DNA of 64,000 nt. Source: Spirochaetia bacterium. Lineage in GTDB: Bacteria > Spirochaetota > UBA4802 > UBA5550. Positions 11,540-47,614 of this stretch are shown piece after piece. A model generated the notes under the pieces. It was given only the letters and a program-made list of their open reading frames with translations, was not told the origin of the DNA and did not search any database. The first letter of the stretch is position 1; each line of letters begins with the position of its first letter. Position numbers and translations under genes: made by a program. The stretch spans positions 4,623-68,622 of the forward strand of contig VFJS01000042.1 in the NCBI GenBank assembly GCA_009885955.1, in the 5' to 3' direction.

Positions 11540-12037
11540 TCACTGTGCCTGAGCTGTAATATAGTCACCGCTCCCTATGATCAGGGAACCTACTGACGTG
11601 GTGGCAGTAAAATTCAATGTATAGATATCTGCTACTGGTGTAATATTTAATGTTGATGTAGAAACGCCGGTATTGGTATACAGGATATTATCCTTTTTTA
11701 TCGTTATTGTATAATTTGCCTGCGATGCAGCTTTATAAATCATGATATTGAAGCTGGTAGATTTGCCGCTCAACTTCGAATCTGCTGCAAAGGCCTCATA
11801 ACTTTCATTGTTCACTGCCCTGTTGACATAGACTGCTGAGCATGTCGATGATGCTGTGCATGATTCATTGATACTTGCATCGGTAAATGAGTATGCCTTG
11901 AGCGTTGATAAAGGCGTACTGAGGGTAAAATCCACTGTATTAAACCCTGTTACCCTTTTGCTGCTGTGGGATTTGGAACAGCCGGAAATAAAAAATGCAG
12001 CAGCTGATATGATGATGATAAATCCTTTTCTGTTCAT
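11540..12037 (-). CDS. hypothetical lipoprotein
   Basis: Signal peptide with lipobox FISGCS. Ser/Thr-rich mature part. Confidence 0.45.
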   Translation of the reverse strand: MNRKGFIIIISAAAFFISGCSKSHSSKRVTGFNTVDFTLSTPLSTLKAYSFTDASINESCTASSTCSAVYVNRAVNNESYEAFAADSKLSGKSTSFNIMIYKAASQANYTITIKKDNILYTNTGVSTSTLNITPVADIYTLNFTATTSVGSLIIGSGDYITAQAQ

Positions 12038-12321
12038 TAAATAGACGGCTGTCCTTATCGATATAAAAAATCAGTTTAGGTCAAAATATATTCTGCCAAT
12101 TATTTTAGTAAATACAAATTTTTTTGGAACAATTAAAAATCCGGAGTTCATTGGCAATTTTTATCCACCCGTTTAATATAAGCGTTGATAATGGCTATTC
12201 TTATCAAATATGATAAAAATTTCATGAGATTATGACTTTTTCTTGACTGAATCATGTTTTTATATTTTAATTGTACAAGCGATATAATTTTTCTGTTATT
12301 TTAGGTTTGAGGAGACATAAA

Positions 12322-12999
12322 TTGAAAAAATTAGCTGTAATAATCATTATTTTGTTCATTGCTGCTACATCTGCCAGGGCTAATATTTTTTTAGATGTAT
12401 TCGGCCTATACAATAATACCGGATATGCCAATAATCAGACTGCCCCTGGCCTTACACCTCCCTCTGTACCAGGATTTGCCGGAGGATTTAATGTAACCAG
12501 GGATGTAAGCCTTATTTTCAGGGGGTATAGCTCCAATCTCATAACAGATAACAATACCTTTGTAACCAGCGGGACATATACGGGGATGCCAAAAGAGAAA
12601 AAATATTACCATAAAGCATACAACGGCGGGTTGGAATATATTTATCCCATAATCATCCCATCTATAGACCAGGGCCTTGGATGGAGGAGTTCGATTCTTG
12701 CAGGATACTCGCAGACTGAAATTAAGAAATCGTCTAAAACAACGGCGACGCCGGCAGAGATAGCTGCAGGGGCATCTGGTTTTTTTAATGAAACCGAAAG
12801 CGACCGGGGATTGGCATTTCAGATAACAACAGGGATTCAGATCAATATTCTTCAGCATTTATCAGCGTTCCTGGACCTTGGTTATCATAAATCATTTTAC
12901 ATGAACGAATTTGAAAAAAAGAATATCAGCGGCTACCAGGTCATGCTGGGCGTCAGGGTTTATGCATTTAAGTTCAGGTCTATAGGTGAGGATTATTAA
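12322..12999 (+). CDS. hypothetical secreted/outer-membrane protein
   Basis: The probable start is the TTG at 12322 with GGAGA 6 nt upstream, giving the signal peptide KKLAVIIIILFIAATSARA. Beta-strand-like Gly/Tyr-rich composition. Confidence 0.4.
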   Translation: MKKLAVIIIILFIAATSARANIFLDVFGLYNNTGYANNQTAPGLTPPSVPGFAGGFNVTRDVSLIFRGYSSNLITDNNTFVTSGTYTGMPKEKKYYHKAYNGGLEYIYPIIIPSIDQGLGWRSSILAGYSQTEIKKSSKTTATPAEIAAGASGFFNETESDRGLAFQITTGIQINILQHLSAFLDLGYHKSFYMNEFEKKNISGYQVMLGVRVYAFKFRSIGEDY

Positions 13000-13033
13000 A
13001 AAATTATTAAAATTTTTCAATTACCTGTTTTTT

Positions 13034-13072
13034 AGAGACTCAGGGATAATTATAACTGAGTCTTTTTATTTG
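13034..13072 (+). terminator. rho-independent terminator (AGACTCAG / CTGAGTCT stem plus T-run)
   Basis: An 8-bp stem and 12-nt loop followed by TTTTTATTT, 35 nt after the stop at 12999. Confidence 0.55.
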
Positions 13073-13307
13073 TATATGGGATCTTATTTTTTAAGGAATC
13101 CGTGTTAAAAATGTCAATTTTATTTTTTTCATTATTTAATGGATGTTTTTATAAAATTGTCAGTTTTTAAAATCAGTTCAGAAAAAAAATTGAAAAAAAT
13201 TTATTAAAAAAGAGGGCGGCCATATAATTTTTATTTTATAAGGAACAAAAACCATTAAAAATGATCATATATATCAGCTAAATTTTATTATAGGAACGAG
13301 GTTTATT

Positions 13308-14111
13308 ATGAATATAAACATTACCGGAAGGCATATCAACATTTCAAACAGGCTCAAAGAATACTCTGAAAAAAAGATAAAAAAACTGGAAAAATATTTT
13401 CATCAGCTCATTGATGCGCACCTTATTATGTATGTGGAAAAGTTAGAGCACGGTGCGGAAATTATAATAAACGGCGATGGCATCCAGTTTCACGGGAGGG
13501 AAAATGCCGCGGATTTTTTTTCCTCTATTGACCTGCTTTTCGAAAAAATGGAGAAGCAGATTGTAAAATTCAAAGAAAAGCATTCATCCCATAAAAATCT
13601 TCCCTATGATGCGGCCATTCCTCTGGAATTTGAAACTGACCTGGGCAAGGTCATCAATCTGTATCAGGTGAGCAACAAGCCCATTGATAAGATTGAGGCC
13701 TATCTCCAGATGAATCTGGATAAAAAGGATTTTATCCTGTTTAAAAAGGGGATAAACAAGCTTGAATCTGATTTTGATTATTCAAATAAGAGCTACGCCG
13801 TCATGTTTAAGGGCAATAAGGGAACAAAGCTGGTAAAAATTCTCTTTGAAAACATGAAGGAGCATAAGATTGACTTTGATAATTTTGTTGAATATGATCT
13901 CCAGGTGCTTGATGACTCCAGGACCAATCCAAATATTGAATTCAGAAAATGCCCGGATTGTTCAATCAGGAAATTTACCCTTGAAGAGGCGATCAGCAAT
14001 ATTGAGGAGTCAAAGGATCCTTTTATGACATTTTTCAATACTGAATCGCAATTTTTTAATATCATCTATAAGTCGGGCAGGGATTTTAATGTGCTTGTGC
14101 CTGCATTTTAA
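13308..14111 (+). CDS. hpf: ribosome hibernation-promoting factor (long HPF) with an extra, duplicated C-terminal domain
   Basis: N-terminal RaiA/HPF domain (MNINITGRHINIS...KLEKYF). A long-HPF CTD-like segment (IDKIEAYLQMNLDKKDFILFKKG...SYAVMFKGNKG). A second CTD-like segment (FTLEEAISNIEESKDPFMTFFNTESQFFNIIYKSGRDFNVLVP). Confidence 0.8.
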   Translation: MNINITGRHINISNRLKEYSEKKIKKLEKYFHQLIDAHLIMYVEKLEHGAEIIINGDGIQFHGRENAADFFSSIDLLFEKMEKQIVKFKEKHSSHKNLPYDAAIPLEFETDLGKVINLYQVSNKPIDKIEAYLQMNLDKKDFILFKKGINKLESDFDYSNKSYAVMFKGNKGTKLVKILFENMKEHKIDFDNFVEYDLQVLDDSRTNPNIEFRKCPDCSIRKFTLEEAISNIEESKDPFMTFFNTESQFFNIIYKSGRDFNVLVPAF

Positions 14112-29679: not shown

Positions 29680-30027
29680 TCAGCCCTTCTTTATCATCGG
29701 CCCCAGGTCCCTGCCGCCGAATATATGGACATGGAGATGAAAGACCTCCTGGTGGGCGTCCCTGCCGTTATTGATGAGGATCCTGTATCCGCTTTCGTCA
29801 ACATCTTTGATCTTCACCACCTCTTTTACTGCAAGGAAGATATCCGACATGATTGCGCTGTTTCCGCTGTTGATATCATTTAAATCAACAATGTGTTCCC
29901 TGGGTATAACCAGTGTATGGGCCGGTGTCAGGGGGTTGATGTCGTCAAAGGCAAGAACCTTTTCATTTTCATAGACTTTTTTTGCCGGTATCTGCCCGGA
30001 AGCAATTTTACAAAAAATACAATCCAT
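29680..30027 (-). CDS. HIT-family (histidine triad) hydrolase
   Basis: MDCIFCKI N-terminus and HLHVHI triad. Start at 30027 with a GGAGACA SD; the track's longer ORF upstream has no coding support. Confidence 0.85.
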   Translation of the reverse strand: MDCIFCKIASGQIPAKKVYENEKVLAFDDINPLTPAHTLVIPREHIVDLNDINSGNSAIMSDIFLAVKEVVKIKDVDESGYRILINNGRDAHQEVFHLHVHIFGGRDLGPMIKKG

Positions 30028-30043
30028 AGATGTCTCCAGAAAT
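29916..30043. repeat. left copy of a 128-bp direct repeat (HIT start codon, SD and first 37 codons)
   Basis: Matches 32583..32710 by eye with a single mismatch (ctgcccgg vs ctgtccgg). Confidence 0.85.
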
Positions 30044-30290
30044 TGCACGCCCTCACCCCCGACTCGTCGAGCGCTTTTCGAACATCGAACAGCAGGATGC
30101 GGTGAATGCCGAAACGCGACAGGACGTCGCAAAAAGCTTTGGCCTGTCCGCGCTCGACACTAAAGCATCCTGCTTGTCGGCAGTGCGCTTTTTCGACCTC
30201 CTGTCGGCGCACTGCACTAAAGCATCCTGCTTGTCGCCTCTCCCAGAATGGGGCGAGGGGAGTCTTTGGCATGTTAATAAAATTTCATTC
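30044..30290. mobile_element. GC-rich MITE-like structured repeat element, copy 1
   Basis: Termini GCCCTCACCCCC ... GGGGCGAGGGG. Internal 22-bp direct repeat CACTAAAGCATCCTGCTTGTCG occurs twice, plus inverted partners. Related sequences at 38514..38694 and 41270..41631. Confidence 0.55.
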
Positions 30291-30496
30291 ATTCACTCAG
30301 AAAATAAAGGATACTATTTCAATCAGAATTAATCAAGCATTTTTTGTTTTAGGAAAAAAAGGAAAAGTAAAATATTTTATGGCCATTTACTGAACTGAAA
30401 GAAATTTGGCTTGACACATGAGAATATTTTGATATATTGTTGACGATGTGTGATACTTCCGTATTGCAAAATATAAAATTAATTTGGAGGAATTGA

Positions 30497-30929
30497 ATGA
30501 AAATATTGTATCAATTAATGAAAAAATTCTCTCTCTCTCTCTCTCATAATCATTTTTTCCAGTTTTAATATCATCGGTTGTGCTACAATAACTAGAGGAA
30601 GTGAAGAAGCATTAGCGATAAATTCAAAACCTACAGGTGCAATGGTTCTAATTAAAAATACTGAAGATGGGACTGAAATATTTAAAGGATTAACTCCAAC
30701 CGCTGTAAAACTTAAAAGAAAAGGTAATTATTCAGTAAGAATTGAAAAAGAAGGTTATGAAACATTGTTAATTAATGTAACAAATCAAAAATCAGATACA
30801 GGAGGGGTAGCAACTGCTGGAAAATGTCTTGCTGGAGGCTGTATAGGATTTGGAATTGACCATAGTACAGGTGCAGGATTAAATCTAATACCCAATCCAA
30901 TAAATGCTGAATTAGTTATTACAAAGTGA
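30497..30929 (+). CDS. phase-variable PEGA-domain lipoprotein gene, currently frame-shifted (OFF) within a (TC)9 tract in its signal peptide
   Basis: GGAGG is 6 nt before ATG 30497. A 23-codon ORF stops at 30566. The downstream frame encodes lipobox IIGC then a PEGA-like domain; one extra TC unit fuses the two frames. The track lists only the internal ORF 30642..30929. Confidence 0.65.
30528..30545. repeat. (TC)9 dinucleotide simple-sequence repeat
   Basis: Counted directly as tctctctctctctctctc. Confidence 0.95.
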
Positions 30930-30937
30930 CCAACGCA

Positions 30938-30975
30938 TCGGCTAAAGCTGAAGGCTTCTGTTTCGGCTTTAGCCG
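30938..30975 (+). terminator. stem-loop (CGGCTAAAGC / GCTTTAGCCG, 10-bp stem) 9 nt after the lipoprotein stop; weak U-tract
   Basis: Inverted repeat read from the sequence; no clear U-tract follows. Confidence 0.4.
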
Positions 30976-31325
30976 AATAAATGTCATCCTCAACCTGAAA
31001 ATTGTCATCTACGGGTTCTTTTCCTTGCTCCTCAATATATTATAGGATGATCTCATCAGTTATATTTCATGATGATACTACAAAATATCCCCGAGTCCAC
31101 AGATGACGACCCCAAAATTGATGACTCAGTTCAATGTATTCTGTTAATAATTTGATGGCGTAACAAACGCCTGACCCTATAAAAAAAGAGCATTCTGATA
31201 AATAACATGCGGCAGCTGACAGCAGCCGGATGAGAAGGTTTTGGCTGCCGCGTTTTCTGATGATTATTAACTTGACATTTCCATTTATTTATGAGAAATT
31301 GATGAAATGGATCTATGGAGGAGTT

Positions 31326-31529
31326 ATGATAATTGAAAATCGAAATAACGAAATAATAATTCGCATTCCGGCGAATATTGACATAAATATATCTCAGGAT
31401 TTTATTGAGTATGTGCATGTAAAGAGTATTCTTTCCGGGAGCAGCGCCTCACAGGAAGATATTGAAAAAATTTCTGATGAAATCAATAAATTATGGTGGG
31501 AAAAAAATAAAACCAGGTTTATTAAATGA
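31326..31529 (+). CDS. putative antitoxin (small protein upstream of and overlapping a PIN toxin gene)
   Basis: 67 aa. GGAGGAG SD. ATGA overlap with the PIN gene. No family recognised. Confidence 0.45.
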   Translation: MIIENRNNEIIIRIPANIDINISQDFIEYVHVKSILSGSSASQEDIEKISDEINKLWWEKNKTRFIK

Positions 31530-31966
31530 GGGTTGTCATTGACACCAATATACTCATAAGCGCTTTAATCAATCCAGCAGGCAAAGAAGCTGATATACTT
31601 TTAAATCCTCTTTACGAATATGAAAAATATAGCTGCTATTTTCTATTTGTTGAAATATTAAAACATAAAGATAAACTTCTTAAGTTTTCGAGTTATAAAG
31701 AAGTGGATTTTCTCGAGCTATATTATTGTATCTTAAGAAAATTGAAATTTATCAACGAAGAGCACATCCCTTTCCGTATCTGGGAGCAAGCTTTATTCAT
31801 TACAAAAGATATAGATGAGAATGATACTCCGTTTGTAGCTCTAACTATTTACTTGGATGGTATTCTCTGGTCGGGTGATAAAAAAATTATGAAATGTCTT
31901 GAAAAAAAGGATTTTAATAAGTATATAACGACAAAAGATTTGATCGTTTTATTGGAAAAAAGGTAA
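31526..31966 (+). CDS. PIN-domain (VapC-like) toxin
   Basis: MRVVIDTNILISAL N-terminus with acidic residues at DENDTPFVAL and LWSGDKK. Confidence 0.7.
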   Translation: MRVVIDTNILISALINPAGKEADILLNPLYEYEKYSCYFLFVEILKHKDKLLKFSSYKEVDFLELYYCILRKLKFINEEHIPFRIWEQALFITKDIDENDTPFVALTIYLDGILWSGDKKIMKCLEKKDFNKYITTKDLIVLLEKR

Positions 31967-31973
31967 ATATTTT

Positions 31974-32201
31974 ATGAAAATACAATATTTTCCTGAAACA
32001 GATTCCCTTGGGATCATGTTTTCCGAGAAGCCTGGCTCCGACTCCTATGAAATAGCGGAAGGAATCACGGTTGATATTGACGATAATAGCAGGCCAGTTG
32101 GTATAGAGTTTGAATCCGCGAAAGGCAGGATCGATCTTTCTGATATCATTCTAAAAGTGCCAACGACACATATCAGTTATGATTCCGTAAAAATAAAATA
32201 A
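31974..32201 (+). CDS. DUF2283-family small protein
   Basis: MKIQYFPETDSLGIMFSE ... VGIEFESAKGRIDLSD matches the DUF2283 pattern. Confidence 0.6.
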   Translation: MKIQYFPETDSLGIMFSEKPGSDSYEIAEGITVDIDDNSRPVGIEFESAKGRIDLSDIILKVPTTHISYDSVKIK

Positions 32202-35938: not shown

Positions 35939-36445
35939 CTACTTCTTCCTGAAAAGGATATTTCCCCGGGAATCGATTATTTCCAGTATGGGGTGTGAAG
36001 GGGATCTCCTGTCAATGACAGCAGGATCCCCGGTATCCTTTTTATCAATCTTCACGGATTCATCTTTTATCACGGGCGATTTCTGAACAAGTTCCTTCTC
36101 TATTTTTTTCTCTTTTTCACCTTTTTCTCTATTTCCTCCATTTTCTGATTTTTCAGGCTTTATGGTTTTTTCCTCTTTTTTTGTTTTTTCTAACATGCCG
36201 GCCAAATCAGGGTGTATGTTTTTTTTAATAAATGGCATATCAGGGTGCAGGGGGTTATCTTCATGCGGTTCCCCGGAGAATATTGCATTCTGCCATATCA
36301 TCGAGTCATATATCTGCGGTTTGCGGCATGTTCTGATTAAAAATATGCAAAACAGAAGGAGCAGGACTATAATGAAAATCAGGAGCCCTTTTTTTTTATC
36401 GTTCCTATTATTATTGTTCTTTTTTTGTTTTTTTACAGCCTTCAT
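35939..36445 (-). CDS. hypothetical membrane-anchored Lys/Glu-rich protein
   Basis: N-terminal TM helix followed by low-complexity KE-rich sequence. Confidence 0.35.
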   Translation of the reverse strand: MKAVKKQKKNNNNRNDKKKGLLIFIIVLLLLFCIFLIRTCRKPQIYDSMIWQNAIFSGEPHEDNPLHPDMPFIKKNIHPDLAGMLEKTKKEEKTIKPEKSENGGNREKGEKEKKIEKELVQKSPVIKDESVKIDKKDTGDPAVIDRRSPSHPILEIIDSRGNILFRKK

Positions 36446-36674
36446 TTGTCTGCTCTTTACCTGATTACGCTAATTTCCTTCTGCTTCCCGAATGAATAAT
36501 TGTATTGTTTGTAATTTAAGCAGTGTTGAAAATAATTTCAATTAATAGTTAAATTATATTGACAATATTTTAATGTATTGCCATGCTGCTGTGTATGATA
36601 ATTAATTTATATTTATCATATAATTTTAAATTATAAAACCATGGATGATACATACATTGAAATCTGATAACAAC

Positions 36675-36743
36675 ATGATGCCCGGGAAGGCGCTGCTTTT
36701 ATCCCTTCTCCTATCTCTTGATATAAACAGGACCGGTTCGTGA
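36675..36743 (+). CDS. candidate leucine-rich leader peptide (MMPGKALLLSLLLSLDINRTGS)
   Basis: 22 codons, 7 of them Leu within 9 residues, using 5 different Leu codons. An intrinsic terminator follows and leuA lies downstream. Weak SD. Confidence 0.4.
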   Translation: MMPGKALLLSLLLSLDINRTGS

Positions 36744-36773
36744 TGTCTTTGAAATATTAGTCTGATTAAAAAA

Positions 36774-36808
36774 GGCCGTCACGAAAAAGAGTGACGGCCT
36801 TTTTTTTT
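36774..36808 (+). terminator. intrinsic terminator/attenuator (GGCCGTCAC / GTGACGGCC stem plus T9) about 100 nt upstream of leuA
   Basis: Perfect 9-bp stem, 8-nt loop, nine T residues. Confidence 0.6.
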
Positions 36809-36912
36809 ATAAAATAACCCCCCCATACTCAACCACTCAGTGGAGTATAGTAGGGGCGAGGATATTCTGGAATATGTAAAATAAATTTCATTAAAAAAAG
36901 GATGGCAGTACA

Positions 36913-38490
36913 ATGAAAAAAAATGACAGGATAATAATTTTCGACACAACCCTGAGGGACGGAGAGCAGTCTCCCGGATTCAGCATGAATATAGAGGAAA
37001 AGCTTCTCATCGCCGACCAGCTTGAGAGCCTGAATGTGGATGTCATTGAAGCCGGCTTCCCGGTAATATCAGATGGCGACTTTGAGGCTGTCCAGAGGAT
37101 CTCGGAACGGGTGAAGAAGGCCCAGGTGGCAGGGCTTGCCAGGGCCAATGGACCGGACATAGATGCTGCATGGAAGGCGCTGAAGAATGCCAGGAAGCCC
37201 AGGATTCACACATTCATATCCAGCTCGGACATACACATAAAGCACCAGCTTAAAAAAACCAGGGCCGAAGTGCTTAAAATCGCCATTGAATCAGTGAAGA
37301 AGGCGAAATCATATACTGCCAATGTGGAATTTTCGCCCATGGACGCCACAAGGAGCGACATCGGGTTCCTTGCGGAAATGGTACACGCCGTCATCGAGGC
37401 CGGGGCAACCACGATCAACATCCCCGACACCGTGGGGTATACCATCCCATCGGAATTTCATTTTATCATAAAACATCTCTACGAACATGTGCCTGGCATA
37501 CACAATATAATAGTATCGGTCCACTGCCACAATGACCTGGGCCTTGCCGTGGCAAATTCAATTGCAGCAGTGCAGGCAGGGGCACGGCAGATCGAGTGCA
37601 CCATAAACGGCATAGGCGAACGGGCCGGGAACACGGCCATGGAGGAGATCGTAATGGCCATCAAGACCAGGAGCGATATGTTCAGGGTGACTACCGGCAT
37701 CAATACGAAGCAGATCATGTCAGCGAGCAAACTCCTTACCCATATCACCGGCGTATCAGTGCAGCCCAACAAGGCAATCGTGGGCGACAACGCTTTTGCC
37801 CATGAATCCGGGATACACCAGGACGGGATACTCAAAAATTCCATGACCTATGAAATCATGAAGCCCGAGGACGTGGGCATAAGCAAGTCGACCCTGGTGC
37901 TCGGCAAGCATTCCGGCAGGCATGCAGTCGTGGACAGGCTGAAGACCATGGGCTACAAGCTGAAAAAGGATGAAGTGGACCGTTTTTTCAAATACTTCAA
38001 GAACCTTGCAGACAAGAAGAAACAGATTTTCGACGAGGACCTCATCGCCATCGTGGGGGAGTCCATATACAAGGAGGAGCAGAAGAGGAGGTACAAGGTG
38101 GAGAACGTCCAGATATCCACGGGTATGTTCTCGCCTCCCATGAGCATGGTCACCCTGAAAGACCATGATGACGACAACAAAATATCCTTTGAGGTGCAGC
38201 ACGGGAACGGCGGGGTCGATGCCGGGGTCAACGCGGTGAGGAAGATGACCGGAACCAAAGCGGTCATAAAGGCCTTTTCATTGACAGCCATTACCGGCGG
38301 GTCCGACGCCCTCTGCGAGGTTTCGGTTACGGCAGTGGAAAACTTCAAGGGAAGGGAACTGAAGGTATTCGGCAGCGGCGTGAGCATCGACATCTCCATC
38401 GCAGGCATTTTTTCCTTTGTCGACGCACTGAACAAGATCGAGTACTTGAAGAAGATGGGTCATGCGAGGAAGATTTCGGAAAAAGTTTAG
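36913..38490 (+). CDS. leuA: 2-isopropylmalate synthase (LeuA/CimA family)
   Basis: DTTLRDGEQSPG N-terminal motif, HxH metal-binding site (HCHND) and C-terminal LeuA-dimer regulatory domain. Confidence 0.85.
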   Translation: MKKNDRIIIFDTTLRDGEQSPGFSMNIEEKLLIADQLESLNVDVIEAGFPVISDGDFEAVQRISERVKKAQVAGLARANGPDIDAAWKALKNARKPRIHTFISSSDIHIKHQLKKTRAEVLKIAIESVKKAKSYTANVEFSPMDATRSDIGFLAEMVHAVIEAGATTINIPDTVGYTIPSEFHFIIKHLYEHVPGIHNIIVSVHCHNDLGLAVANSIAAVQAGARQIECTINGIGERAGNTAMEEIVMAIKTRSDMFRVTTGINTKQIMSASKLLTHITGVSVQPNKAIVGDNAFAHESGIHQDGILKNSMTYEIMKPEDVGISKSTLVLGKHSGRHAVVDRLKTMGYKLKKDEVDRFFKYFKNLADKKKQIFDEDLIAIVGESIYKEEQKRRYKVENVQISTGMFSPPMSMVTLKDHDDDNKISFEVQHGNGGVDAGVNAVRKMTGTKAVIKAFSLTAITGGSDALCEVSVTAVENFKGRELKVFGSGVSIDISIAGIFSFVDALNKIEYLKKMGHARKISEKV

Positions 38491-38713: not shown

Positions 38714-39598
38714 TTGAAGGTGTTGAATATGAAAAAAATCGCAGTGGTCCTGTTTCTTGTATTCCTGATTCTGCCCGGATGCCGGGAGAAAATACCCGGT
38801 GCGGAAATAAGCACTATCCAGGACGATGCCGACTGGTCCTTTGTGCTCCTGGGGGATATCCGTACGGGGTATGATGTGTACCGGCAGCATATCAAGGTCA
38901 TCAAACATGTGGCCCCTCCGCCGTCATTTGTAATGATTACCGGTGACCTGGTTTCAAAACCGGGAAAGGAGGATGAGTGGAAGGAGTACAGGGAGATATC
39001 CTCGGCAATCCCGGAGTCCATACCCCTCTATGTCGTTGCCGGGAACCATGATGTGAACAGCCGGGAGACAAATGACATGTACATGGCCTATACGAATATG
39101 CCCGGTAATAAAATGTATTATTCCTTCACCCGCAGGGGGGTCCGCTTTATATGCCTGCACACGGAACTTCCCGGCGAGGCCGGCAGGATCACAGGCGGGC
39201 AGTACCGGTGGCTGGCCGACCCGGTGAGCGGTGAACTGGCAAAGGCCCAGGCCGACACATCCATAGAGTCCATAGTAATTTTCATGCACCGGCCCCTTTA
39301 TCCACAGGGGAGATACAAAGGGAGGAAATCAATAGAAAATGCCGACGGCCTTCATGCACTCTTTGAATCAATGGGGAAGGTAAGGCTTGTCGTGGCGGGC
39401 CACGAGCACCAGTTTTTTTATTTCAAGAAGAACGGAATACACCATATCATATCAGGCGGCGGCGGTGCTCCACTGTATAATGAAAATGGAGGAGATTTTT
39501 ATCACCTGGTGAAGATCGGGATGTATGGTAAAATAAAGGCCATGAAGGCAAGGGTCTACGGGCTGGACGGGAAGGTGATACGGGAGTTTGAGATGTAG
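38714..39598 (+). CDS. calcineurin-like metallophosphoesterase lipoprotein
   Basis: Lipobox LILPGC. Motifs GDIR, GDLV, VAGNHD and AGHEHQ. Confidence 0.8.
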   Translation: MKVLNMKKIAVVLFLVFLILPGCREKIPGAEISTIQDDADWSFVLLGDIRTGYDVYRQHIKVIKHVAPPPSFVMITGDLVSKPGKEDEWKEYREISSAIPESIPLYVVAGNHDVNSRETNDMYMAYTNMPGNKMYYSFTRRGVRFICLHTELPGEAGRITGGQYRWLADPVSGELAKAQADTSIESIVIFMHRPLYPQGRYKGRKSIENADGLHALFESMGKVRLVVAGHEHQFFYFKKNGIHHIISGGGGAPLYNENGGDFYHLVKIGMYGKIKAMKARVYGLDGKVIREFEM

Positions 39599-46232: not shown

Positions 46233-46396
46233 GAGGAATTTTATTATACTACACAAAAATATAGTATTTTTTACTTGACATAATAAAGAATTTTTTATTA
46301 CTTTACAAATAATGCCACATAATATTTTTTTATTTGATTTTATCGGCATGTTCATCGTATATATTATAATGAAACAAAAATGAAAGGGGTTTGGAA

Positions 46397-47614
46397 ATGA
46401 CTGAACAAAACAGCGCGGAAAAGAAAAATCAGGTCCTGGAGGCTGCGATTCAGCAGATTGAGAAGCAGTTCGGCAAGGGCTCAATCATGAGGCTCGGGGA
46501 TAATAACCCCAAATTTGAAATACCCTGCATATCTACAGGTTCCCTTGAACTGGACATAGCCCTGGGCCTGGGGGGAGTTCCAAGGGGGAGGATTATTGAA
46601 ATATACGGGCCCGAATCGTCGGGGAAAACTACTCTCACCCTCCACATAGTGGCAGAAGCTCAGAAGGCCGGCGGCGTTGCGGCATTCATCGATGCCGAGC
46701 ATGCCATGGACCCCGGTTATGCCAAGAAGCTGGGCGTGAACACCGATGAGCTCCTTGTATCACAGCCCGACACCGGGGAAGAGGCCCTTGAAATCGCCGA
46801 AGCCCTTGTGAGGTCAGGAGCCGTGGATATCATCGTGATAGATTCCGTGGCCGCACTTGTGCCCAAGGCTGAAATTGACGGCGAAATGGGCGATTCCCAC
46901 ATGGGTCTCCAGGCAAGGCTCATGAGTCAGGCCATGAGAAAACTTGCAGGCATCATATCGAAATCCAAGACAAGCATGATTTTTATCAACCAGATCAGGT
47001 ATAAAATAGGGGTCATGTTCGGTTCCCCGGAAACGACTACCGGGGGCAATGCCCTCAAATTCTATGCATCGGTACGCCTTGACATACGGAAGGTGGAGAC
47101 ACTGAAGAACGGTGAAGATGCCATTGGCAACAGGGTCAGGGTAAAGGTGGTGAAAAACAAGGTGGCGCCACCGTTCAAGCAGGCGGAGTTCGATGTAATT
47201 TTTGACTCCGGCATATCCAGGGAGGGGGGAATCGTGGACCTTGCAGTAAAGTACGACATCATTAAGAAATCGGGAACATGGTATGCCTATGGTGAAGAGC
47301 GTATCGGCCAGGGCAGGGAGAACGCAAAGAAATTCCTCATAGAAAATCCCAAACTGAGTTCGGAGATTGAAAAAAATGTCAGGATAAAGTCCGGACTTAT
47401 AAAAGATGCTAAAGATGCTAAAAGTGCTAAGGATGTGAAGGAAGGAAAAGATATTAAAGATATAAAGGACGCCAGGGAAGGAAAGGATGTCAAGGACGTT
47501 AAGGCAGGAAAAGAAGTCAGGGATATGAAAGATATCAGGGAAGCCAAAGATGATAATGATGACTCAAAGATGAACAACACCAATGACAAGGAAAAGAAGG
47601 CAGCCCAGGCTTAG
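46397..47614 (+). CDS. recA: recombinase RecA with a C-terminal 16x tripeptide (D/E-x-K/R) repeat tail
   Basis: Walker [10 protein letters not shown] and the L1/L2 regions. Start at ATG 46397 (the track's 46391 is a TTG). Tandem 9-bp repeats at 47405..47548. Confidence 0.95.
47405..47548 (+). repeat. 16 tandem degenerate 9-bp repeats (GAT-nnn-AAR) encoding (D/E-x-K/R)16
   Basis: Counted directly. The antisense track ORF 47287..47589 is an artefact of this repeat. Confidence 0.9.

What the first reader, a model, noticed from the sequence alone, without database searches (positions are those of the whole stretch)
36675..36808. Leucine-rich leader peptide plus terminator upstream of leuA (transcription attenuator)
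A 22-codon ORF, MMPGKALLLSLLLSLDINRTGS, has 7 Leu in 9 residues using 5 different Leu codons. It ends 30 nt before a perfect intrinsic terminator (9-bp GC stem plus T9) that lies about 100 nt upstream of leuA. The ORF's last codons (GTTCGTGA, 36736..36743) can pair with TCACGAAC (36779..36786) inside the terminator's 5' arm, which gives a plausible antiterminator. This is the classic ribosome-stalling attenuator design known for enterobacterial leuL. It is worth confirming in this lineage.
Basis: partly seen in the sequence, partly recalled or inferred. Interest (0 to 1): 0.55.

Follow-up and report, generated by a model that had tools for sequence, protein, structure and literature searches.

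The report
Leucine-sensing leader-peptide attenuator before leuA
A short leucine-rich leader ORF plus a switchable terminator sits upstream of the leucine-biosynthesis gene leuA; it is a textbook ribosome-stalling attenuator, but conserved in an uncultured spirochaete lineage where no such element appears to have been catalogued.

Summary
The window contains a 22-codon ORF (36675-36743, 7 Leu in 9 codons), a 9-bp GC hairpin plus T9 (36774-36808), and a bona fide leuA 104 nt downstream. One detail is wrong: 36779-36786 reads TCACGAAA, so the core antiterminator is 7 bp, not 8.

Comparative data strongly support the attenuator reading:
- Each of 36 related sequences (the window plus 35 Spirochaetota species) has one copy with the same layout: TTGACA promoter box, an LLLxLLLxL leader, an invariant UGA stop inside the switch helix, a 24-30 nt spacer, a terminator, then leuA.
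- None of 39 non-spirochaete leuA loci has such an ORF.
- The terminator and the antiterminator (ORF 3' end pairing with the terminator's 5' arm and loop) both show compensatory changes.
- Leader Leu codons are enriched about 14-fold for the rare CUA codon, as in enterobacterial leuL.
- A motif-only metagenome scan recovered 31 more copies, all upstream of leuA. It also found related leaders ahead of an ilvN-like gene in other contigs.

Rfam 15, Pfam and NCBIfam have no matching model, and the literature searches found no spirochaete Leu leader.

Verdict: a real, ordinary-mechanism attenuator that is a new member of a known kind. An upstream anti-antiterminator is weak in the window copy. No transcript data exist.

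The parts
36559..36564 (+). TTGACA, a -35-like promoter box preceded by an A/T-rich tract
   Evidence: An exact TTGACA lies 46-116 nt upstream of the leader ATG in 36/36 sequences. The background is 4.9% per 160 nt. Its function as a promoter is inferred.
36582..36587 (+). Possible weak -10 (CATGCT) 17 nt after the TTGACA. An alternative -10 is TATAAT at 36619-36624.
   Evidence: Position read from the sequence. The scan tool's best hit is ATGATA-18-TATAAT at 36595-36624. The TSS is not determined.
36675..36743 (+). Leader ORF MMPGKALLLSLLLSLDINRTGS* (an in-frame ATG at 36645 would give 32 aa)
   Evidence: Homologous ORFs of 20-30 aa with the LLLxLLLxL(L) motif occur in the window and 35 related species.
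36693..36719 (+). Regulatory Leu-codon block: CTG CTT TTA tcc CTT CTC CTA tct CTT
   Evidence: Across the leaders, CTA makes up 20.2% of Leu codons against 1.4% in the adjacent leuA genes (odds ratio 17.7, p = 3e-29). CTA is 1.3% of Leu codons in 8 window genes.
36737..36743 (+). Region 2: TTCGTGA, the 5' strand of the antiterminator, which includes the UGA stop codon
   Evidence: The stop codon is UGA in 36/36 sequences. The core helix is 92.3% paired, with 3 pairs changed on both sides.
36744..36773 (+). 30-nt spacer ending in A6. It forms the loop of the antiterminator.
   Evidence: Spacer length is 24-30 nt in all 36 sequences.
36774..36799 (+). Terminator hairpin GGCCGTCAC / GAAAAAGA / GTGACGGCC. 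Region 3 (TCACGAA, 36779-36785) lies in its 5' arm and loop.
   Evidence: The hairpin is 98.1% paired across 36 sequences, with 4 pairs changed on both sides. RNAalifold finds the same helix independently. The hairpin with its U-tract folds at -19.3 kcal/mol.
36800..36808 (+). T9 tract of the intrinsic terminator
   Evidence: A T run of 4-9 follows the stem in all 36 sequences.
36809..36912 (+). 104-nt linker to leuA, with a local hairpin (CCCCATACTC 36821-36830 / GAGTAT..GGGG 36843-36856) and the leuA ribosome-binding region
   Evidence: No + strand promoter-like site is listed here. The hairpin is not conserved in relatives.
36913..38490 (+). leuA, 2-isopropylmalate synthase (525 aa), the regulated gene
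   Evidence: It passes the NCBIfam equivalog cut-offs. The next gene (38714-39598) is a phosphoesterase-like protein and not a leu or ilv gene.

Best explanation
This is a leucine-responsive, ribosome-mediated transcription attenuator that controls a stand-alone leuA gene.

Proposed mechanism:
1. Transcription starts downstream of the conserved TTGACA box, and a ribosome translates the short leader ORF.
2. When Leu-tRNA is plentiful, the ribosome runs through the Leu codons to the UGA stop. The stop is itself part of the sequence TTCGTGA (region 2). A ribosome sitting there masks region 2, so the downstream GGCCGTCAC/GTGACGGCC hairpin plus T9 forms and RNA polymerase terminates before leuA.
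3. When charged tRNA-Leu is scarce, the ribosome stalls on the Leu block, especially on rare CUA/UUA codons. The block lies 7 codons before the stop here and 6-12 codons before it in relatives.
4. The stalled ribosome's footprint leaves region 2 free. Region 2 pairs with TCACGAA in the terminator's 5' arm and loop (region 3) before the 3' arm is transcribed. This pre-empts the terminator and polymerase reads into leuA.

What is shown: the elements, their conservation, the compensatory changes in both alternative helices, and the codon bias.
What is inferred: the promoter, translation of the ORF, stalling, and termination or read-through.

Many relatives also have an upstream strand (region 1, at the ORF start, consensus GACATCAC) that can pair with region 2 (GTGATGTC). 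This would give a three-state design, but that pairing is weak in the window copy.
For: - Anatomy in the window.
- leuA identity.
- Small Leu-rich ORFs lie upstream of leuA in 33/37 spirochaete loci at the threshold of at least 6 Leu in 9. This compares with 0/39 non-spirochaete leuA loci and 1.7% of random windows.
- The layout is constant: UGA stop in 36/36, spacer 24-30 nt, T run in all.
- Terminator: 98.1% of cells paired, 4 pairs with double changes, 0/500 shuffles reach the covariation score. RNAalifold predicts the same helix.
- Antiterminator core: 92.3% paired, 3 pairs with double changes (C-G to U-A in 7 sequences, U-A to G-C in 7).
- Each locus's ORF 3' end pairs better with its own terminator arm and loop than with those of other loci: -12.6 vs -9.18 +/- 0.35 kcal/mol, 0/5000 permutations.
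- In transcripts truncated before the 3' arm, the antiterminator is in the MFE in 33/36 sequences with a ribosome footprint on the first Leu codon, and in 29/36 with the footprint on the last. It is in the MFE in 0/36 with a ribosome on the stop codon (that case masks region 2 by construction). The terminator and antiterminator domains have similar energies, mean -18.4 and -17.8 kcal/mol.
- Rare-codon bias: CTA is 20.2% of leader Leu codons vs 1.4% in leuA (p = 3e-29), and 30/36 leaders have at least one CTA. This matches the role of rare CUA codons in the Salmonella leu leader, as discussed in PMC1183508.
- Exact TTGACA upstream in 36/36.
- Covariance model R1 finds exactly one forward-strand copy in the 64-kb window (70.1 bits) and one upstream of leuA in each spirochaete locus, and none in loci L038-L080.
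- A metagenome scan for the RNA motif alone gave 39 hits with a Leu-rich ORF ending at the UGA. Of these, 31 lie directly upstream of leuA.
Against: - There are no transcript, termination or translation data for this or any related locus.
- The window's leader has no recognisable Shine-Dalgarno sequence and an ambiguous start (36675, 36678 or 36645).
- The -10 element after the TTGACA is poor.
- The window's contiguous antiterminator is only 7 bp. Its duplex energy is -8.7 kcal/mol and the whole 2:3 domain is -14.3, against -19.3 for the terminator. Read-through would therefore depend on kinetics.
- Region 1:2 pairing is not better than shuffles in the window (z = -0.44). It is in the ribosome-free MFE in only 13/36 sequences, whereas the antiterminator forms there in 27/36. 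The untranslated default state is therefore unclear.
- The terminator stem is so conserved in sequence that 4 of its 9 pairs never vary.
- Whether this lineage's RNA polymerase terminates efficiently at such hairpins is not known.
Confidence: 0.86

Rival explanations
1. The same elements act, but not by the classical three-hairpin scheme. One option is a two-state switch with no anti-antiterminator. Another is control that also involves Rho, translation of the downstream short ORF seen in relatives, or an RNA-binding protein. Leader translation would still sense leucine, but the decisive step would differ.
For: Region 1:2 pairing is weak in the window (z = -0.44) and is in the MFE in only 13/36 ribosome-free folds. 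A second conserved element (GGAGGTG, then ATG, then a short ORF) lies between the terminator and leuA in 27/36 sequences and is unexplained. The linker to leuA is long, 36-335 nt.
Against: The terminator, the antiterminator and their geometry relative to the Leu codons and the stop codon suffice for a simple attenuator. Both helices show compensatory changes. The second element is absent from the window, L001, L004 and L033, which keep the attenuator.
Confidence: 0.08
2. The small ORF encodes a functional hydrophobic micropeptide with its own terminator. leuA would be transcribed independently from a promoter in the 104-nt linker.
For: The peptide is hydrophobic and its Leu-rich core is conserved at the amino-acid level. 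The hairpin plus T9 looks like an ordinary gene-end terminator.
Against: - Residues outside the Leu block vary freely, and the peptides match no Pfam or NCBIfam family.
- The ORF's 3' end co-varies with the terminator loop, which a coding constraint does not explain.
- Leu codons are biased towards the rarest codon, the opposite of what an expressed protein would favour.
- Linkage to leuA holds in all 31 spirochaete-type motif-only metagenome hits.
- No promoter-like site is listed between 36808 and 36913 on the + strand.
Confidence: 0.03
3. The hairpin is a constitutive or bidirectional terminator or insulator between divergent genes, and the Leu-rich ORF is incidental.
For: A6 precedes and T9 follows the stem, so it looks bidirectional. 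The covariance model also scores the reverse strand at 39.3 bits. Eighty-one of the 120 metagenome hits to the bare hairpin pattern have no Leu ORF.
Against: The upstream neighbour (35939-36445) is on the minus strand, pointing away. leuA is on the plus strand, so no gene ends at this hairpin on either strand. The Leu ORF, the UGA stop, the spacer and the hairpin are conserved as a unit in 36 sequences.
Confidence: 0.02
4. It is a T-box or another known riboregulator of leucine genes.
For: T-boxes control leu and ilv genes in Firmicutes (general knowledge).
Against: No Rfam family reaches its gathering score in the window or in 22 related loci. The sub-threshold hits (Thr_leader, Phe_leader, ncr1175) are aligned mainly on the terminator hairpin. 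As a positive control, the same tool finds E. coli Leu_leader at 145.8 bits.
Confidence: 0.01

Closest known systems
Enterobacterial leu operon leader (leuL; Rfam RF00512 Leu_leader)
   Same: Both have a short leader ORF with a run of Leu codions rich in the rare CUA codon. Both place an intrinsic terminator between the leader and leuA, with an alternative pairing that overlaps the terminator's 5' arm. E. coli leuL, read here, is MTHIVRFIGLLLLNASSLRGRRVSGIQH with four CTA codons and a terminator 22 nt after the stop.
   Different: - There is no sequence or structure homology. RF00512 scores 145.8 bits on E. coli but gives no hit in the window even at E <= 10, and the peptides match no Pfam or NCBIfam model.
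- Here the Leu run is split (LLLxLLLxL) and uses up to 5 different codons.
- The stop is always UGA and is part of the switch helix.
- The Leu block is 6-12 codons from the stop, against 15 in E. coli.
- The regulated unit is leuA alone, not leuABCD.
Leader-peptide attenuators in general (trpL, hisL, thrL, pheL, ilvL)
   Same: The logic is the same: the ribosome's position on regulatory codons selects between an antiterminator and a terminator.
   Different: The lineage is different (Leptospirales-like Spirochaetota). A 2010 survey stated that leader-peptide systems were then known only from Proteobacteria and Actinobacteria, apart from its own Firmicutes finds (PMC2965389). The anti-antiterminator is not clearly present in the window copy.
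Actinobacterial LEU element upstream of leuA (Seliverstov et al. 2005, PMC1262725)
   Same: Both have a Leu-codon uORF upstream of leuA in a non-proteobacterial phylum.
   Different: The LEU element is described as a pseudoknot in which the Leu codons pair with the leuA Shine-Dalgarno sequence, and it often lacks a terminator. Here there is a clear hairpin plus U tract, located 36-335 nt from leuA.
Leucine-rich attenuator peptide of the Staphylococcus aureus ilv-leu operon (PMC5794164)
   Same: A Leu-rich leader peptide controls BCAA biosynthesis genes outside the Proteobacteria (from the paper's title and abstract as listed).
   Different: It is a different phylum and operon. I did not compare the sequences.
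Leptospira ilvB motif WRC-14-1 (Brewer et al. 2021, PMC8632094)
   Same: It is a conserved 5' element of a BCAA biosynthesis gene in the same phylum.
   Different: It lies upstream of ilvB, is known from 7 Leptospira sequences, and was proposed as a riboswitch candidate. No sequence was available to me, so any relation is untested.

Membership tests
Ribosome-mediated (leader-peptide) transcription attenuator | A short ORF with clustered codons for the end-product amino acid of the regulated pathway | tested here: met
   The window ORF has 7 Leu in 9 codons. The LLLxLLLxL motif is conserved in the window and 35 related species. The regulated gene is leuA.
Ribosome-mediated (leader-peptide) transcription attenuator | An intrinsic terminator (GC hairpin plus U tract) between the leader ORF and the structural gene | tested here: met
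   A 9-bp stem plus T9 at 36774-36808. It is 98.1% paired with 4 doubly changed pairs across 36 sequences, and RNAalifold agrees. Actual termination was not tested.
Ribosome-mediated (leader-peptide) transcription attenuator | An antiterminator that is mutually exclusive with the terminator and whose upstream strand is masked by a ribosome that completes the leader | tested here: met
   TTCGTGA (which includes the stop codon) pairs with TCACGAA in the terminator's 5' arm. The helix is 92.3% paired with 3 doubly changed pairs. Own-versus-cross duplex test: 0/5000 permutations. The Leu block lies 6-12 codons before the stop, so a stalled ribosome leaves region 2 free.
Ribosome-mediated (leader-peptide) transcription attenuator | An anti-antiterminator or pause hairpin (1:2) that gives termination without translation | tested here: inconclusive
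   Across the 36 sequences the mean z is -1.9, and 17/36 have z < -2. The pairing usually involves GACATCAC at the ORF start with GTGATGTC. The window scores z = -0.44. The pairing is in the ribosome-free MFE in only 13/36.
Ribosome-mediated (leader-peptide) transcription attenuator | A promoter upstream of the leader, so that leader and gene are co-transcribed | tested here: inconclusive
   An exact TTGACA is present in 36/36 sequences against a 4.9% background, but the -10 is weak and no TSS data exist. No promoter-like site is listed in the linker.
Ribosome-mediated (leader-peptide) transcription attenuator | Read-through increases when the cognate charged tRNA is limiting | not testable with these tools
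   This needs term-seq, reporter assays or in vitro coupled assays.
Rfam RF00512 Leu_leader / Pfam and NCBIfam leu leader peptide (enterobacterial leuL) | A match to the family's covariance model or HMM | tested here: not met
   There is no RF00512 hit in the window at the gathering threshold or at E <= 10. The control E. coli locus scores 145.8 bits. The leader peptides hit no Pfam or NCBIfam model at E <= 10.
T-box leader (Rfam RF00230) | A match to the T-box model (specifier loop, T-box sequence) | tested here: not met
   No hit in the window or in 22 related loci.

The most novel reading that the evidence does not exclude
This is the founding example of an uncatalogued, ancient attenuator RNA family that is absent from Rfam 15, Pfam and NCBIfam. 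The family has a 'frozen' design: a UGA stop embedded in the switch helix, a GCCGUCAC/GUGACGGC terminator, and a spacer of about 27 nt. It is conserved throughout a Leptospirales-like spirochaete clade. Relatives in other, GC-richer soil lineages sit in front of ilvN-ilvB-leuA or of an ACT-domain protein plus an acyl-CoA dehydrogenase. Under this reading, the spirochaete leuA arrangement arose by loss of ilvN/ilvB, leaving a conserved short second uORF as a remnant or a co-opted element.
Probability: 0.5. Interest if true: 0.45.

Novelty: new member of a known kind. Interest (0 to 1): 0.38.

Why it matters
The result extends leader-peptide attenuation, including its rare-CUA-codon hallmark, to a spirochaete lineage where RNA-level control of amino-acid synthesis is little described. 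It provides a clean alignment of 36 sequences, with covariation in both alternative helices, that could seed a new Rfam family and improve annotation of these MAGs. It also shows leuA, the committed and feedback-sensitive step, being regulated alone. The mechanism is textbook, so the gain is breadth and annotation, not a new principle.

Tried and rejected
- The consensus terminator and promoter scan listed no terminator here and only a weak promoter. I judge the terminator miss to be an artefact of the scan rule (A6/T9 extend the stem).
- Rfam at gathering threshold on the window and on 22 loci found nothing. Sub-threshold hits are aligned mainly on the terminator hairpin.
- Pfam and NCBIfam searches with six leader peptides found nothing.
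- Six completed full-text literature searches (a seventh call failed on a term error) and five papers gave no report of a spirochaete Leu leader. The supplement of PMC8632094 held no ilvB-motif sequences.
- Region 1:2 pairing in the window is not better than shuffles.
- RNAalifold on the second conserved motif gave no structure.
- The covariance-model search for extra copies in the window and loci found none beyond the leuA copy, plus one decayed copy in L036.
- I ran no further search on finding cultured Leptospira leuA loci.

Full report
**1. Observation.** The sequence at 36675-36808 is as described.
- A 22-codon ORF, MMPGKALLLSLLLSLDINRTGS, has seven Leu in nine residues encoded by CTG, CTT (x3), TTA, CTC and CTA.
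- Thirty nucleotides after its TGA stop lies a hairpin: GGCCGTCAC, loop GAAAAAGA, GTGACGGCC.
- T9 follows the hairpin, and the next ORF starts 104 nt later at 36913.
- That ORF passes the curated NCBIfam cut-offs for 2-isopropylmalate synthase (NF002086 736.6 bits vs 532; TIGR00973 693.4 vs 598.7).
- The gene stands alone. The next gene downstream is a phosphoesterase-like protein. The upstream neighbour is a divergent minus-strand ORF.

36779-36786 is TCACGAAA, not TCACGAAC, so the contiguous antiterminator is TTCGTGA with TCACGAA, 7 bp. An in-frame ATG at 36645 would lengthen the peptide to 32 aa. The consensus scan listed no terminator. I attribute this to the A6/T9 flanks extending the stem past the tool's tail rule.

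**2. Known families.** No known family matches.
- No Rfam 15 family reaches its gathering score in the 64-kb window.
- At E <= 10 the region gives only sub-threshold hits aligned mainly on the terminator hairpin (Thr_leader, Phe_leader, ncr1175), and none to Leu_leader RF00512.
- As a positive control, the same tool finds RF00512 at 145.8 bits in E. coli.
- The leader peptides hit no Pfam or NCBIfam model.

**3. Orthologous loci.** A scan of one genome per species with the LeuA protein returned 37 Spirochaetota loci at 67-79% identity. They are MAGs labelled Spirochaetota, Leptospirales, Leptospiraceae or Leptospira. Hits from other phyla were at 54-61%.
- Upstream of leuA, 33 of the 37 spirochaete loci have a small ORF with at least 6 Leu in 9 residues. 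It follows the pattern ..N-LLL-(G/S)-LLL-(S/C)-L(L)-x(5-8)-stop.
- None of 39 non-spirochaete loci has one, and only 1.7% of random 600-nt windows do.
- The layout is fixed:
  - an exact TTGACA 46-116 nt before the leader ATG in 36/36 sequences, against a 4.9% background;
  - a leader of 20-30 codons;
  - the stop always UGA, inside (G)TT(T)CGTGA;
  - a spacer of 24-30 nt;
  - the stem GCCGTCAC/GTGRCGGC followed by a T run;
  - then 36-335 nt to leuA.

**4. Alternative structures.** On the 36-sequence alignment A1, both helices are supported.
- Terminator: paired in 98.1% of cells, with four pairs changed on both sides (U-A to C-G, C-G to U-A, G-C to A-U). No shuffle reaches its covariation score. 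RNAalifold predicts the same helix independently.
- Antiterminator core (alignment columns 17-24 with 60-67): paired in 92.3% of cells, with three pairs changed on both sides.
- In many loci the antiterminator pairing extends into the terminator loop, for example GGGGTTTCGTGA with CACGGAAACCCC, AGAGGG with CCCTCT, and CCCGGG with CCCGGG.
- Each locus's ORF end pairs better with its own arm and loop than with those of other loci. The means are -12.6 and -9.18 +/- 0.35 kcal/mol, with 0 of 5000 permutations as low.

**5. Geometry and folding.**
- The last Leu codon of the block lies 6-12 codons before the stop, and 7 codons before it in the window.
- I folded transcripts truncated before the terminator's 3' arm. 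The antiterminator is in the MFE in 33/36 sequences with a 30-nt footprint on the first Leu codon, and in 29/36 with the footprint on the last.
- With the footprint on the stop codon it is in the MFE in 0/36, because region 2 is then masked by construction.
- The terminator and antiterminator domains have similar stability, with means of -18.4 and -17.8 kcal/mol. In the window they are -19.3 and -14.3.
- An upstream strand at the ORF start (consensus GACATCAC) can pair with region 2 plus the following bases (GTGATGTC). The mean z is -1.9, and 17/36 sequences have z below -2.
- In the window this pairing scores only z = -0.44. It is in the ribosome-free MFE in only 13/36 sequences.
- The third (anti-antiterminator) state is therefore plausible for the family but not established for this copy.

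**6. Codon bias.** In the 36 leaders, CTA makes up 20.2% of Leu codons, against 1.4% in the adjacent leuA genes (odds ratio 17.7, p = 3e-29). TTA is also enriched, at 10.8% vs 4.1%. Thirty of 36 leaders carry at least one CTA. In eight window genes CTA is 1.3% of Leu codons. Rare CUA codons are the classical sensitivity device of the Salmonella leu leader (Carter et al. 1986, as discussed in PMC1183508). This argues against the ORF being an ordinary expressed protein.

**7. Specificity and breadth.**
- Covariance model R1 finds one forward-strand copy in the window (70.1 bits) plus a reverse-strand shadow of the palindromic hairpin.
- It finds one copy upstream of leuA in each spirochaete locus and none in L038-L080.
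- L036 keeps the TTTTGTGATGTC box and the terminator but has lost the Leu run, so it appears to be a decayed copy.
Of these, 39 have a Leu-rich ORF ending at the TGA, and 31 lie directly upstream of a leuA 69-79% identical to the window's.
- Seven soil contigs carry a related leader (..VSNLLVLGLLLSPSG*). In those with enough downstream sequence it is followed by an ACT-domain, ilvN-like small protein and an acyl-CoA dehydrogenase.
- One contig (L138) has a leader followed by an ilvN-like gene, ilvB and leuA.
- The design therefore reaches beyond the spirochaete clade. Whether this reflects common descent or convergence is open.

**8. Literature.** Six completed full-text searches found no description of a Leu leader or leuA attenuator in Spirochaetota. 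I read five papers for context.
- A 2010 survey stated that leader peptides were then known only from Proteobacteria and Actinobacteria, besides its own Firmicutes cases (PMC2965389).
- The actinobacterial leuA LEU element is a pseudoknot/SD-pairing design (PMC1262725).
- The L. interrogans TSS map does not mention leuA or attenuation. It reports many leaderless mRNAs, so the lack of a Shine-Dalgarno sequence before the window's leader is not disqualifying (PMC5243855).
- A Leptospira-only 'ilvB motif' was proposed as a riboswitch candidate (PMC8632094). I could not obtain its sequence.

**9. Verdict.** The element works like the enterobacterial leu attenuator but is not a member of that family by sequence or structure. 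I rate it a new member of a known kind, with about 0.86 confidence in the mechanism class. Interest is modest, because the principle is textbook and no experiment exists yet.

Noticed in passing
L002-L052 (e.g. L013:3830-3875, L021, L018); absent from window 36809-36912: In 27/36 sequences a second conserved element lies 6-99 nt after the attenuator terminator. It is GGAGGTG, then ATG at a fixed +12 to +14, then a short ORF M-x-(F/L/V)-P-(Y/F/C/R)-(R/M/S)-L of 7-25 codons. It has no Rfam hit and no RNAalifold structure. It may be a remnant or a co-opted start of an ilvN-like gene (compare L090 and L138).
   Followed up: partly
L090:396-461, L121, L124, L113, L135, L139, L146 (metagenome contigs): A related Leu leader (..VSNLLVLGLLLSPSG*, stop UGA in GGGTGA pairing with TCACCC of the same GCCGTCAC terminator) is found on these contigs. 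Where downstream sequence is available, it precedes a 98-aa ACT-domain (ilvN-like) protein and an acyl-CoA dehydrogenase. On L138 it precedes an ilvN-like gene, ilvB and leuA. The taxon was not determined.
   Followed up: partly
L036:3763-3880: This looks like a decayed copy. The TTTTGTGATGTC box and the GCCGTCAC/GTGACGG terminator are kept (41.3 bits with R1), but the upstream ORF (MTASVNVQFRLYVSVKKTD*) has no Leu run and ends at TAA before the box.
   Followed up: partly
window 36821-36856: There is a local hairpin, CCCCATACTC...GAGTAT-AGTA-GGGG, between the terminator and leuA. It is not shared with relatives, and its function is unknown.
   Followed up: no
L047, L050, L055, L065, L074 (about 90-120 nt upstream of leuA): A tiny reading frame, MLP(A/V/L)LRSNR, recurs upstream of leuA in Desulfobacterales loci. 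This hints at a different conserved 5' element in that lineage.
   Followed up: no
window 47400-47614 (3' end of recA, 46391-47614): RecA carries an unusual C-terminal tail of about 70 aa that is Lys/Asp/Glu-rich and repetitive ([44 protein letters not shown]...).
   Followed up: no
window 30000-32000 and 12000-14000: Both stretches have low GC (0.35 and 0.34, against about 0.44 elsewhere). The first holds an ORF (31526-31966) whose N-terminus MRVVIDTNILISAL looks PIN-domain-like. That is my reading and was not tested.
   Followed up: no
window 35939-36445 (-): The divergent upstream ORF (168 aa) is Lys/Glu-rich with one hydrophobic segment and has no NCBIfam match. Whether it is a real gene was not checked.
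   Followed up: no
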